DNA from: Minisyncoccota bacterium
Lineage (GTDB): Bacteria > Patescibacteriota > Minisyncoccia > Phycocordibacterales > PALSA-1337
Reading direction: 5' to 3'
Length of the DNA stretch: 58,262 bases
Assembly: GCA_036170235.1 (NCBI GenBank)
Contig: JAVHOW010000002.1
Span: 1-58,262 of the forward strand
The position numbers and the translations under genes were made by a program. The notes beneath the pieces were generated by a model. The model made no database searches. It was not told the origin of the DNA and saw only the letters and a list, made by a program, of their open reading frames with translations. This document shows positions 47,125-48,218 of the stretch, piece after piece. The stretch's first letter is position 1. Each line of letters opens with the position of its first letter.

Positions 47125-48218
47125 TCAAGACGTGAACAAAAACCAACACATATTAATAATATCCTGACTCAATTCGTATGCATTAGCATGATACATAACT
47201 CCAAGATAAGACTTCATCGAAGCCTGAAATTTAGACTCTGTAATTTCACCATTCTTGTATTTAACAACACGCTCACGTAATCTTCGAATCATTCTGTGTT
47301 TAGTCTTTGTTCGAAGCTTAATATGATATGGTAAAATAACATATCCAAGAAAATCGACGCCACGGTTATATTTTCGGATTGTGACTTTTTTGGGATGAAG
47401 ATCCAGATGTAATTTTGATCTCAAAAAATCACGTATAGGATTAAGTATTGACTCAAGATACTTCTCATCATCCGAAACAATTATAAAATCATCAGTATAC
47501 CTAACATAATTTTTTACTTTCAATACATGTTTAACAAAATGATCAAACTCGTTCATGTAGATATTGGCAAAAATTTGAGAAGTCAGATTGCCAATTGGTA
47601 TTCCTTTTTTGAAAAGTGGCAGAGTTTTACTCTCTCTCTCTCTCTCTCTCTCTCTCTCGTAAGCGCACTTGTATCAGAAGTATAGCTTGCTATTATTTCT
47701 TCTATCAGCCACATAGCTTTGGAGTCTTTAATTTTTCTCTGAAGAATAGAAATGAGAATAGAGTGATCCACAGTATCAAAAAATTTTCGGATATCACACT
47801 TAAGTGCGTAACATGGATGAGTATAGTTTTTACTCACGGCTCGAATCATGCCAACAACTTTTTTCATACCTTTGTGTGTTCCTTTGCCGACTCTGCAAGA
47901 ATACGAATCATTGATAAACGTAGGTTCAAATATGCGATCCAGGACGGCAAACACCGCATGATGAAGCACTCGATTTCTGACTATTGCTTTATGGATTCGT
48001 CGAAGCTTCGGGTCATGAATCAAAAATCCCTTGTATGGTCCGTGCTTATACGTTCCATTTTTTAAACTTCTATATAGATCGAAAATGTTCCGCTCAAGAT
48101 CATGTTCAAAAATAGCGACATCTGGTTTGTTTCGTTTATCTAATTTGAATACATTCCATGAGCGAAATAATGTACTAGGCGAAATTATAGACCAATATAA
48201 ATCTTTATAAATTTTCAT
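47125..48218 (-). pseudogene. DGR reverse transcriptase, frameshifted at a dinucleotide microsatellite (363 aa if one unit is removed)
   Basis: Upstream frame has PKLRRI, SYSCRVGKGTH, KCDIRKFF; the second frame continues KGIPIGNLTSQIFANIYMNEFD, YVRYTDD, GVDFLGY; frame offset 662 nt = 2 mod 3. Confidence 0.9.
47630..47658. repeat. (TC)14 / (GA)14 simple sequence repeat within the RT
   Basis: c followed by 14 tc units; translates as RERERERER. Confidence 0.95.

What the first reader, a model, noticed from the sequence alone, without database searches (positions are those of the whole stretch)
47125..48218. DGR reverse transcriptase gated by a (GA)14 microsatellite: candidate phase-variable switch for hypermutation
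Seen: the RT is split into two frames at a 14-unit dinucleotide tract (47630-47658), between the KCDIRKFF and GIPIGNLTSQ motifs. Removing one unit (13 units) or adding two (16) fuses the halves into a 363-aa RT with no other stop and an intact YTDD. No other tract of this kind was noticed in the window. Established: long dinucleotide tracts in ORFs cause slipped-strand phase variation. Inference: DGR activity is toggled stochastically, so only a subpopulation diversifies the target and a useful VR variant can be frozen when the RT slips OFF. This would be a contingency locus controlling a mutator.
Basis: partly seen in the sequence, partly recalled or inferred. Interest (0 to 1): 0.92.

Follow-up and report, generated by a model that had tools for sequence, protein, structure and literature searches.

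The report
Microsatellite-gated DGR reverse transcriptase
A perfect run of 14 GA repeats throws the mutator enzyme of a diversity-generating retroelement out of frame, and similar slippery repeats sit in or just before this enzyme's gene in many related tiny groundwater bacteria, which suggests that their targeted hypermutation is switched on and off by repeat slippage.

Summary
A perfect 29-nt (GA)14G tract at 47630-47658 splits an otherwise intact DGR reverse transcriptase (RT) into two frames. Avd, TR, VR (8 of 8 mismatches at TR adenines) and a target gene lie beside it.

It is not a one-off lesion. Among related Patescibacteria RT loci, 33 unique ones carry a (GA)n tract of 10-51 nt in the same loop. 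Seven are in frame and 26 are out of frame, in both wrong frames. Of 78 loci without a tract, 77 are in frame, and the exception has a G10 run at the same spot.

All 26 out-of-frame alleles keep a complete 3' half with YxDD. Its dN/dS is about 0.03-0.05, the same as the 5' half and as tract-less RTs.

Frame state changes between very close relatives. No MutS or MutL was found in the genome. Across 164 genomes of the family, 28 of 31 long GA or CA tracts lie in or just upstream of RT genes.

Best reading: a repeat-gated, probably phase-variable RT (about 0.66). Within-population switching could not be tested, because only contigs were available and the tool masks the tract. Slippage at the RNA or ribosome level remains a live rival.

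I found nothing like this in the papers I searched.

The parts
47583..48218 (-). RT gene, 5' part (ORF1, 211 aa). It covers the N-terminal extension, the fingers and motifs up to KCDIRKFF, runs through the tract, and ends 15 codons after it in the wrong frame.
   Evidence: RVT_1, profile positions 14-105; 2110 relatives.
47630..47658 (-). Perfect (GA)14G microsatellite (29 nt). It encodes alternating Arg/Glu in every frame, and the unit number sets the frame of everything downstream.
   Evidence: Homologous tracts of 10-51 nt in 33 unique loci.
47125..47629 (-). RT gene, 3' part, in the -1 frame relative to ORF1. It reads SKTLPLFKKGIPIGNLTSQ...YTDD... to the stop and has no other lesion. The listed ORF2 starts at the internal ATG at 47556.
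   Evidence: 157 aa from PIGNLTSQ to the stop, as in intact relatives; 49 of 50 highly conserved columns kept.
47604..47610 (-). A_AAA_AAG heptamer in ORF1 phase, 24 nt before the ORF1 stop. A -1 ribosomal slip here would also give ...FSKK|GIPIGN. I judge it a by-product of the codons for KKG.
   Evidence: codon listing; no support from folding. Not conserved in relatives.
48229..48579 (+). avd accessory gene (116 aa). It diverges from the RT gene, and the two start codons are 10 nt apart.
   Evidence: bAvd PF22296, E 3e-17.
48663..48782 (-). Template repeat (TR). The adenine-bearing sense strand is the - strand.
49138..49257 (-). Variable repeat (VR) at the 3' end of the target gene. It differs from TR at 8 positions, all of them TR adenines (5 to G, 3 to T).
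49136..49939 (-). Target gene (267 aa, no Pfam family) with the VR in its last ~40 codons.

Best explanation
The locus is a complete DGR of a groundwater Patescibacteria (CPR) genome. Its RT gene carries a hypermutable (GA)n microsatellite in a disordered surface loop between RT motif 2 (KCDIRKFF) and the PIGNLTSQ motif.

GA repeats read as Arg/Glu in every frame, so the tract never creates a stop itself. Its unit number, modulo 3, decides whether the palm and thumb half is translated. With 14 units this allele is OFF. One unit fewer, or two more, gives a full-length RT.

I propose that slipped-strand mispairing at replication adds and removes units, helped by the apparent lack of MutS and MutL. 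RT production, and with it adenine mutagenesis of the VR, would then switch ON and OFF heritably but reversibly. Most cells (the assembled majority allele) are usually OFF.

Shown here:
- the tract and the frame arithmetic;
- the same device in many relatives, in all three frames;
- complete 3' halves under strong purifying selection in OFF alleles;
- frame-state changes between near-identical relatives;
- concentration of long repeats at RT genes.

Inferred:
- that the slippage is at the DNA level and reversible within populations;
- that OFF freezes a VR variant.
For: 1. Anatomy.

2. Same loop, many lineages. Searches examined 141 loci (L001-L030, L070-L179 and the window). Of these, 121 had both motifs, and 9 were duplicates of earlier loci. 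Among unique loci, 33 have a GA tract of at least 10 nt (10-51 nt, median 25): 7 in frame, 18 in frame +1 and 8 in frame +2. Of 78 loci without such a tract, 77 are in frame. The single exception (L078) has G10 at the same spot. Fisher's test on [[27,7],[0,77]] gives p = 1e-19.

3. Not pseudogenes. All 26 out-of-frame tract alleles keep a 3' part of 153-163 aa with YxDD (one is 347 aa). NG86 dN/dS of the 3' half between OFF alleles is 0.03-0.05 for the closest pairs. For example, L003/L012 have pN 0.013, pS 0.265 and ratio 0.041, against 0.035 for the 5' half. The tract-less in-frame pair L023/L024 gives 0.033. In 50 highly conserved 3'-half columns, OFF alleles deviate at 0.33 positions on average, against 0.94 for tract-less ON alleles.

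4. Fast change. On the RT tree, ON alleles are singletons nested among OFF relatives. Examples are L081 (29 nt, OFF) next to L162 (27 nt, ON), and L003 (13, OFF), L012 (25, OFF) and L027 (21, ON) with end branches of about 0.01. Frame state needs at least 13 changes, and tract presence at least 16, of which 5 are forced by well-supported branches. P0016 and P0028 are 99.4% identical over 174 aa yet sit in different OFF frames.

5. DGRs with OFF RTs have worked. Thirteen OFF loci besides the window show TR/VR pairs with 14-24 mismatches, 76-100% of them at TR adenines. That is similar to the 4 ON loci.

6. The loop tolerates length changes. It is an insertion of about 25 residues relative to the best solved relative, 8ub7_A. 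It is also one of only two segments with pLDDT below 50 in an AlphaFold model of a natural ON allele (mean pLDDT 85).

7. No MutS_V or MutL family match in the genome, which is 88.5% complete.

8. Specificity. In 164 genomes of the family, 28 of 31 places with (GA)10 or (CA)10 are at RT genes, and (TA)10 occurs nowhere.
Against: No read-level data. Unit-number heterogeneity within a population, which is the defining property of phase variation, was not observed.

The in-frame share among unique tract loci (7 of 33) does not differ from the 1/3 expected if frame were irrelevant (p = 0.095). That would also fit expression by RNA-level slippage.

Among protein clusters the in-frame share is much lower (3 of 54). 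The query carried an out-of-frame tail, and clusters are not independent.

For this particular allele, the 3' half is less similar to relatives than its 5' half predicts (mean residual -0.035, rank 3 of 56). One otherwise near-invariant residue is changed (Q to H in FDQF). Some relaxation in this lineage cannot be excluded.

Coverage in the runs that hold the locus is low (word depth about 3-9), so the call of 14 units could be off by one.

The loci are related to each other, so the counts overstate independence.
Confidence: 0.66

Rival explanations
1. The tract works at the RNA or ribosome level. RNA polymerase adds or drops GA units, or a P-site tRNA slips by two bases from GAG to GAG or AGA to AGA. 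Any allele would then yield a small, roughly constant fraction of full-length RT. On this view the tract is an attenuator that keeps RT scarce, not a heritable switch.
For: All three frames occur at near-random proportions in assembled genomes (7:18:8). That is expected if the DNA frame hardly matters.

The 3' halves are conserved although most alleles are out of frame.

A transcriptome study of E. coli reports that about half of all two-base transcription deletions fall in dinucleotide repeats (PMC5574713, passages read). A two-base deletion would restore this allele.

In the main subfamily a TAA stop follows the tract directly in frame +1. There, a two-base back-slip of the P-site tRNA-Glu would land in the RT frame (sequence reading).
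Against: The same paper says such deletions did not rise with repeat number.

To my knowledge no case of programmed slippage on dinucleotide repeats is established in bacteria (recalled).

DNA-level length change demonstrably happens between near-identical relatives, so heritable switching exists whatever else is true.

Known recoding sites keep a fixed frame relation. Here the frame varies.

No RNA run holds the locus, so this is untested rather than contradicted.
Confidence: 0.18
2. The RT of this genome is simply dead or dying. A slippery repeat arose in the one loop that tolerates insertions and has knocked the gene out. Conservation elsewhere in the family reflects lineages that are mostly ON.
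For: The assembled allele cannot make full-length RT.

The window's 3' half is somewhat less conserved than expected, and one near-invariant residue is changed.

The genome has a second, in-frame DGR RT on another contig.
Against: There is no second lesion in 1.1 kb, and 49 of 50 highly conserved 3'-half columns are kept.

The 26 unique OFF alleles all have complete 3' halves, with dN/dS of 0.03-0.05 in the closest pairs.

OFF alleles as a group are no less conserved than tract-less ON alleles.

Repeats of several kinds recur at RT genes and almost nowhere else in 164 genomes. A neutral hotspot would not produce that pattern.
Confidence: 0.07
3. Assembly or sequencing miscall. The true majority allele has 13 or 16 units and the gene is simply intact.
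For: Word depth is about 3-9 in the runs that hold the locus. Contigs of two runs end inside the tract and none bridges it. Dinucleotide runs are prone to stutter (general knowledge).
Against: A 92%-identical relative from other sources (P0002) has the same tail and the same repeat count. In total, 26 unique loci from many independent assemblies are out of frame only at such tracts, and 77 of 78 tract-less loci are in frame. Even if this single call were wrong, the family-wide pattern would stand.
Confidence: 0.05
4. Programmed -1 ribosomal frameshift at the A_AAA_AAG heptamer (47604-47610), 24 nt before the ORF1 stop, as in dnaX or IS3-family transposases. This would make full-length RT from the 14-unit allele.
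For: The heptamer is in the correct phase. The needed shift is -1, and the product would join ...FSKK to GIPIGN exactly. An 8-bp hairpin starts about 9 nt downstream.
Against: Folding of the downstream 106 nt is no better than shuffles: z = -0.65, and 47 of 200 shuffles fold at least as well.

The heptamer is simply the Lys-Lys-Gly codons of the RT frame.

It is absent from most tract-bearing relatives. Most OFF alleles are in the other wrong frame, which -1 slippage cannot rescue.
Confidence: 0.04

Closest known systems
Simple-sequence contingency loci of host-adapted bacteria, for example CT/AG dinucleotide tracts in Helicobacter pylori outer-membrane protein genes and poly-G tracts in Campylobacter and Neisseria (recalled; abstracts of PMC3315296 and PMC4965091 seen in the listing)
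   Same: A long perfect repeat lies inside an ORF, and its unit number sets the frame. Both ON and OFF alleles are found among close relatives. The organism seems to lack mismatch repair. Repeats are concentrated in a few genes.
   Different: The gated gene is not a surface structure but the enzyme of a targeted mutator. The organism is a free-living or episymbiotic groundwater CPR bacterium. The tract lies mid-gene in a catalytic-domain loop rather than near the 5' end. Switching itself has not been observed.
Phasevarions: phase-variable Type III and Type I methyltransferases (abstracts of PMC5909438 and PMC7383803 seen in the listing)
   Same: A repeat inside the gene of a nucleic-acid enzyme switches a downstream genome-wide or locus-wide state rather than a single structural phenotype.
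   Different: The downstream effect here is sequence diversification of a target gene, not a methylation pattern. The ON state leaves a permanent genetic record in the VR.
Bordetella phage BPP-1 DGR (bRT, Avd, TR, VR). 8ub7_A is the best solved relative. I recall it as bRT, but the tool names it only 'Reverse transcriptase'.
   Same: RT with PIGxLTSQ and YxDD motifs, Avd, a TR/VR pair with adenine-specific differences, and the VR at the 3' end of the target.
   Different: The window's RT has an extra loop of about 25 residues, absent from that structure, that holds the repeat. The RT frame is interrupted. avd lies on the opposite strand between TR and RT. I found no repeat-based control of an RT in the DGR papers I read.
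Frameshift-dependent expression of polymerase or transposase in retroelements and IS elements, such as retroviral gag-pol and the IS3-family A_AAA_AAG (recalled)
   Same: The catalytic part of a mobile-element polymerase lies in another frame and is made rarely.
   Different: Those elements use a fixed slippery site and a fixed frame relation. Here the frame relation differs between relatives and follows repeat length.
Reversible mutator switches at mismatch-repair genes, such as repeat changes in mutL or prophage excision at mutS-mutL (recalled, not retrieved)
   Same: A stochastic, reversible genetic switch controls a mutation-generating state.
   Different: Those switches raise the genome-wide mutation rate by loss of repair. 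This one would gate a site-directed mutator, so the cost of being ON is local.

Membership tests
Diversity-generating retroelement (DGR) | Reverse transcriptase of the DGR type (RVT_1 with PIGNLTSQ and YxDD motifs) | tested here: met
   both halves match RVT_1; a natural in-frame homologue matches 8ub7_A at E 1.6e-41. Motifs are visible.
Diversity-generating retroelement (DGR) | Accessory variability determinant (Avd) next to the RT | tested here: met
   bAvd PF22296, E 3e-17, at 48229-48579 (+).
Diversity-generating retroelement (DGR) | TR/VR pair whose differences fall at TR adenines | tested here: met
   120-nt repeat, 8 of 8 internal mismatches at TR adenines on the - strand.
Diversity-generating retroelement (DGR) | VR at the 3' end of a target ORF (usually a C-type lectin fold) | tested here: inconclusive
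   The position requirement is met (VR 49138-49257 inside ORF 49136-49939). The fold was not tested, and no Pfam family matched.
Diversity-generating retroelement (DGR) | Uninterrupted RT reading frame | tested here: not met
   the assembled 14-unit allele stops 15 codons after the tract.
Simple-sequence-repeat phase variation (contingency locus) | Long perfect repeat whose unit number sets the reading frame of an otherwise intact gene | tested here: met
Simple-sequence-repeat phase variation (contingency locus) | Repeat length differs between close relatives, with ON and OFF alleles both present | tested here: met
   (13 frame-state changes on the tree). (99.4%-identical pair in different states).
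Simple-sequence-repeat phase variation (contingency locus) | OFF alleles stay under purifying selection, so they are not pseudogenes | tested here: met
   (dN/dS 0.03-0.05 for the closest OFF pairs). (26 of 26 complete 3' halves)..
Simple-sequence-repeat phase variation (contingency locus) | Reversible switching of unit number within one population or clone | not testable with these tools
   only contigs are available, the tract is masked by the tool, and no contig bridges it; no raw-read or RNA run.
Simple-sequence-repeat phase variation (contingency locus) | Repeats enriched at the gene class relative to the genome background | tested here: met
   (next longest dinucleotide run in the genome is 5 units). 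with 74, 77, 78 and 81: 28 of 31 long GA/CA tracts in 164 genomes are at RT genes.
Programmed -1 ribosomal frameshifting (dnaX / IS3 type) | X_XXY_YYZ heptamer in the zero frame before the zero-frame stop | tested here: met
   TCA AAA AAG, 24 nt before the TGA.
Programmed -1 ribosomal frameshifting (dnaX / IS3 type) | Downstream stimulatory structure | tested here: inconclusive
   an 8-bp hairpin about 9 nt downstream, but z = -0.65 and 47 of 200 shuffles fold at least as well.
Programmed -1 ribosomal frameshifting (dnaX / IS3 type) | Heptamer and frame relation conserved among homologues | tested here: not met
   the heptamer is absent from most relatives, and 18 of 26 OFF alleles are in the frame that a -1 shift cannot rescue.
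Programmed transcriptional slippage | RNA shows unit-number heterogeneity that the DNA lacks | not testable with these tools
   no listed holder is on record as RNA.

The most novel reading that the evidence does not exclude
In this family of Patescibacteria, DGR reverse-transcriptase genes are the genome's main contingency loci. At least three RT lineages have acquired hypermutable repeats at three different places:
- a mid-gene loop (GA tracts, and twice a poly-G run);
- the 5-80 nt before the start codon ((CT)n, (GA)n, (TG)n or poly-G);
- the first ~16 codons ((GA)n or (CA)n).

On this reading, selection has repeatedly favoured stochastic ON/OFF control of targeted hypermutation: a switch on a mutator, evolved convergently.
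Probability: 0.5. Interest if true: 0.92.

Novelty: new variant of a known kind. Interest (0 to 1): 0.82.

Why it matters
DGRs are the only known natural machines for targeted protein hypermutation, and they are especially common in CPR bacteria (PMC8144416, passages read). How a cell limits their activity, so that a useful variant is not immediately overwritten, is an open question.

A heritable but reversible repeat switch on the RT would answer it. Most cells keep their variant, and a minority explores.

There is also a practical consequence. RT-based DGR surveys work on predicted proteins and may miss or misjudge these split RTs. "Inactive" DGRs in population data may simply be OFF alleles.

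The idea is directly testable with flank-anchored read counts, long reads that link repeat length to VR haplotype, and simple reporter fusions.

It would also be a rare case of contingency loci outside host-adapted pathogens.

Tried and rejected
Read-level test. The look-up of sequencing runs listed 8 groundwater or freshwater DNA runs, all kept as Logan contigs, and no RNA holder was listed. Read laying on X1, X2, X4 and X5 masks 47620-47667. Contigs of X1 and X2 end inside the masked stretch and none bridges it. Unit numbers therefore could not be tabulated, and the breaks cannot be interpreted at word depth 3-9. No VR differences appeared in the contigs of X1, X2 or X4, but contigs drop rare variants, so this says nothing about activity.

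I could not look for length variants inside 90% clusters. Instead I compared proteins already fetched.

-1 frameshift at A_AAA_AAG. Considered and rejected as the general mechanism.

Frame bias. OFF frame +1 outnumbers frame +2 by 18 to 8 (p = 0.076). The protein set shows a different mix, so I draw no conclusion.

Excess of OFF. At the protein level 3 of 54 are ON (p = 1e-6), or 3 of 35 after I dropped the 19 clusters whose tails resemble the query's own tail (p = 7e-4). At the DNA level 7 of 33 are ON (p = 0.095). I do not claim that OFF is favoured beyond chance.

Rows dropped.
- One search used 19 of the 26 genome-contig loci that had both motifs. It left out L004 (identical to L003), L008 and L018 (short 3' parts), and L017, L022, L026 and L029 (different lengths).
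- dN/dS was computed only where pS was below 0.74: 22 of 55 OFF-OFF pairs for the 3' half and 17 of 55 for the 5' half.
- Searches used the 56 unique loci with a 3' part of exactly 157 aa and a full 5' part.
- The tree used 101 of the unique loci, leaving out those with a cut 5' end or a 3' part under 137 aa.
- In some searches, 20 of 141 loci lacked one of the two motifs and were not scored.

Literature. Searches gave these results:
- DGR + phase variation + reverse transcriptase: 18 papers, 15 listed.
- DGR + frameshift + Candidate Phyla Radiation: 0 papers.
- DGR + simple sequence repeat: 2 papers, both general reviews judged by title and abstract.
- DGR + phase-variable: 22 papers, 15 listed, all on gut phages or Bacteroides judged by title and abstract.
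- Six repeat-related terms with at least two required: none of the 20 listed papers holds the DGR term.
- DGR + Patescibacteria + reverse transcriptase + truncated: 56 papers, 20 listed.

Term look-ups inside PMC8144416, PMC11661182, PMC10053308 and PMC4891356 found no mention of a frameshifted or repeat-interrupted RT. Paul et al. 2017 on CPR DGRs (PMC5436926) is not held. Supplements are closed, so tables there may list split RTs that I could not see.

The poly-G census is truncated: 28 distinct places are listed and 140 matches are not. It includes likely contig-end artefacts, so it serves only as a lead.
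Full report
WHAT IS THERE

The window holds a complete DGR on the minus strand.
- The target gene is at 49939..49136 (267 aa, no Pfam family). Its last ~40 codons are the variable repeat, VR (49257..49138).
- The template repeat, TR, is at 48782..48663.
- An avd gene lies on the opposite strand (48229-48579; bAvd, E 3e-17).
- The reverse transcriptase (RT) gene is at 48218..47125.

On the minus strand TR and VR differ at 8 positions inside the 120-nt repeat. 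All 8 are adenines in TR, changed to G five times and to T three times. This is the signature of DGR mutagenesis, so the element has worked in the past.

The RT gene is interrupted only by frame. ORF1 (211 aa) runs from the conserved start MKIYKDLYW through KCDIRKFF and into a perfect (GA)14G tract (47630-47658). It ends 15 codons later. The rest of the RT (SKTLPLFKKGIPIGNLTSQ ... YTDD ... to the stop at 47125) is open in the -1 frame.

A script that varied the unit number from 8 to 20 found one uninterrupted ORF at 10, 13, 16 and 19 units (361, 363, 365 and 367 aa) and early stops at all other numbers.

IS THE TRACT MORE THAN CHANCE?

Tandem Repeats Finder reports it as the only period-2 array in the window. 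In the whole 694,807-bp genome (19 contigs, GC 0.41) the next longest dinucleotide run is (GC)5. The genome is 88.5% complete.

In 164 genomes of the same family, (GA)10 occurs at 23 places, (CA)10 at 8 and (TA)10 at none.

THE SAME DEVICE IN RELATIVES

A protein search with ORF1 returned 2110 relatives. Among the best 120 clusters, 54 carry an (RE)n run of at least 4 residues at this position.
- 41 continue into an out-of-frame tail and stop.
- 10 end at the tract, either at the stop that follows it in one frame or at a contig end.
- 3 are full-length.
- The common 349-aa relatives have no tract.

I then fetched DNA: 69 loci from species-representative genomes (the first 30 are Patescibacteria by their record titles), 80 from metagenome contigs and 30 from the window's own family. 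For each locus I measured the distance between the KCDxxKFF and PIGNLTSQ motifs modulo 3.

Of 141 loci examined, 121 had both motifs, and 9 of those duplicated earlier loci. Among unique loci, 33 have a GA tract of 10-51 nt (median 25). Seven are in frame, 18 are in frame +1 and 8, including the window, are in frame +2.

Of 78 loci without such a tract, 77 are in frame. The exception, L078, has a G10 run at the same spot. L169 has (GA)6 followed by G9 there. Frame disruption is therefore tied to a repeat (Fisher p = 1e-19).

NOT PSEUDOGENES

All 26 out-of-frame tract alleles keep a 3' part of 153-163 aa from PIGNLTSQ to the usual ...WFWLxE end, with YxDD. One locus, L103, runs on to 347 aa.

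Nei-Gojobori estimates show the 'untranslated' half evolving like a coding sequence. For L003/L012, both OFF, pN is 0.013, pS 0.265 and the ratio 0.041, against 0.035 for the 5' half. Other unsaturated OFF-OFF pairs give 0.03-0.05. The tract-less in-frame pair L023/L024 gives 0.033.

In 50 3'-half columns that are at least 93% conserved, OFF alleles deviate at 0.33 positions on average and tract-less ON alleles at 0.94.

Thirteen OFF loci besides the window have recognisable TR/VR pairs with 14-24 mismatches, 76-100% at TR adenines. That is similar to the four ON loci.

The 3' half must therefore be translated often enough for selection to see it.

HOW FAST THE STATE CHANGES

On a maximum-likelihood tree of 101 RTs, with the loop left out of the alignment, each in-frame tract allele is a singleton nested among out-of-frame relatives.
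- L162 (27 nt, ON) is sister to L081 (29 nt, OFF), with end branches of 0.05 and 0.07.
- L027 (21 nt, ON) groups with L003 (13 nt) and L012 (25 nt), both OFF, with end branches of about 0.01.

Frame state needs at least 13 changes. Tract presence needs at least 16, of which 5 are forced by well-supported branches.

Two protein clusters that are 99.4% identical over 174 residues (P0016 and P0028) sit in different OFF frames. A 97.1% pair (P0024 and P0063) does likewise.

WHY THE LOOP TOLERATES IT

GA repeats read as Arg/Glu in all three frames, so the tract never makes a stop by itself.

A natural in-frame allele (L027, 363 aa) aligns with the best solved relative, 8ub7_A (E 1.6e-41), in two blocks. 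Its residues 176-200, which hold the tract, have no counterpart there. An AlphaFold model of that allele has mean pLDDT 85.2 and pTM 0.81. Only two segments fall below 50, one of them residues 184-201, which is the tract loop.

WHY SLIPPAGE IS LIKELY

Neither MutS_V nor the MutL family was found in the genome, while the same search finds them in 11 of 14 control genomes. The genome is 88.5% complete, so absence is probable but not proven.

A WIDER PATTERN, SEEN WHILE CHECKING BACKGROUND

Of the 23 (GA)10 places in the 164 genomes:
- 13 are in this loop of this RT lineage;
- 7 lie 4-55 nt before the start codon of a second RT lineage (about 45% identical), five as (CT)n on the sense strand and two as (GA)n abutting the ATG;
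- 2 lie in codons ~7-16 of a third, ~410-aa RT type next to a bAvd gene;
- 1 lies upstream of a LamG/Ig-like secreted protein.

Of the 8 (CA)10 places:
- 4 lie within 80 nt upstream of second-lineage RT matches;
- 2 lie in the first codons of third-type RTs;
- 1 lies in the first codons of a large secreted protein;
- 1 is intergenic.

In total, 28 of 31 long tracts are at RT genes.

The window's own genome has a second DGR on contig C17, with one TR, two VRs and an in-frame RT. The genome's only G9 run lies about 15 nt before that RT's first ATG. In a truncated listing of poly-G runs in the genus, 10 of 28 listed places lie 16-42 nt before a second-lineage RT match.

Different repeat types at the same relative position look like selection for a repeat as such, not for a particular sequence.

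MECHANISM AND RIVALS

The best-supported reading is a repeat-gated RT whose ON/OFF state is set by unit number and changes by slipped-strand mispairing. This is classical phase variation applied to the enzyme of a targeted mutator (confidence 0.66).

The main rival (0.18) is that slippage during transcription or translation supplies a little RT from any allele. The near-random frame proportions among assemblies (7:18:8; ON share against 1/3, p = 0.095) fit this as well. A transcriptome study of E. coli found about half of all two-base transcription deletions in dinucleotide repeats, though without any rise with repeat number (PMC5574713, passages).

A -1 frameshift at the in-phase A_AAA_AAG heptamer is possible for this allele. 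It lacks folding support (z = -0.65) and conservation, and it cannot rescue the commoner OFF frame (0.04).

A decaying gene (0.07) and a miscalled unit number (0.05) remain possible for this single allele. Its 3' half is a little less conserved than its 5' half predicts (rank 3 of 56), one near-invariant Q is changed to H, and coverage is low. Neither explanation accounts for the family pattern.

WHAT COULD NOT BE DONE

Unit numbers in reads, the decisive test, were out of reach. Only contigs are held for the runs, the tool masks the tract, and no contig bridges it. No RNA run holds the locus. Cluster members and earlier scan notes were unavailable.

NOVELTY

Both parts are known kinds: DGRs and simple-sequence contingency loci. 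Their combination, a repeat that gates the DGR RT and recurs across CPR lineages, did not turn up in seven searches of the paper library, six of them keyword searches, or in the DGR surveys I could open. The first CPR DGR paper and all supplements could not be read. I rate it a new variant of a known kind and of high interest, because it offers a concrete, testable answer to how cells restrain a hypermutation machine.

Noticed in passing
G000 contig C17:21004-23754 (outside the window): A second DGR in the same genome. TR is at C17:21443-21551, with two VRs (16 and 11 mismatches, nearly all at TR adenines). The RT is in frame (~C17:21963-22979, 46% identical to the window RT's 5' half). The genome's only G9 run (C17:21942-21950) lies about 15 nt before that RT's first ATG.
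   Followed up: partly
L183, L185, L188, L192, L195 (tract at about locus position 1500); L189, L193: A second RT lineage of the family has repeats just before the RT start. Five loci have (CT)10-17 on the sense strand, 42-55 nt before ATGATGTACAAC. Two have (GA)12 only 4 nt before the ATG. Four further genomes have (CA)/(TG) tracts within 80 nt of the first aligned residue. In a truncated list, 10 of 28 listed poly-G10 places lie 16-42 nt upstream of such RTs.
   Followed up: partly
L210:1294-2541 (-), L211:2486-3700 (+), L214:305-1630 (-), L215:1332-2597 (-): A third RT type of ~405-416 aa. L210 and L211 match RVT_1 in Pfam, and a bAvd gene was confirmed beside L211. L214 and L215 were recognised only by RT motifs. 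This type carries (GA)n or (CA)n in its first ~16 codons (RERERE or THTHTH). All four are in frame with an upstream ATG.
   Followed up: partly
L078 (motif region near 1131) and L169 (near 1073): Two RTs of the window's lineage carry a poly-G run in the same loop instead of, or after, a GA tract: G10 in L078 and (GA)6G9 in L169. Both are out of frame.
   Followed up: partly
window 48218-48229 and 48229-48782: avd (+) and the RT (-) diverge with start codons only 10 nt apart. The sense strand of TR is the - strand, so a TR-to-RT transcript would run antisense through the whole of avd. Whether relatives share this layout was not checked systematically.
   Followed up: no
window 48397-48678: Summed contig depth jumps to 38-57 in three runs, with loose ends at about 48524-48529 and 48556-48560. 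A stretch of about 30 nt that encodes the Avd C-terminal motif EIGKMLGGW is shared by contigs of many other organisms in the same samples.
   Followed up: partly
G000 C1:30698-30707 and C14:8033-8042: These are the genome's other long homopolymers. A10 encodes KKK in codons ~5-8 of an 855-aa penicillin-binding-protein-like ORF and is in frame. G10 lies where no long ORF is present.
   Followed up: partly
L182 (tract 1501-1526) and L212 (tract 2566-2602), both genome G023: The few long dinucleotide tracts not at RT genes sit at large secreted proteins. (GA)13 lies ~60 nt upstream of a protein shown to have LamG and bacterial-Ig domains (L182). (CA)18 lies in the first codons of an 857-aa protein with a similar signal-peptide-like N-terminus that was not run through Pfam (L212).
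   Followed up: partly
L008 (RT at 824-1607) and L103: L008 has a 10-nt tract in frame, but its RT stops 58 codons after PIGNLTSQ, which may be a real truncation. In L103 the frame after PIGNLTSQ stays open for 347 codons, which may be a fusion with a downstream gene.
   Followed up: no
window 47125-47600: The window RT's 3' half is 57-66% identical to the relatives whose 5' halves are 75-81% identical. Its C-terminus (..NMCWFLFTS) departs from the usual ..WFWLxE. This could be mosaicism or faster evolution in this lineage.
   Followed up: partly
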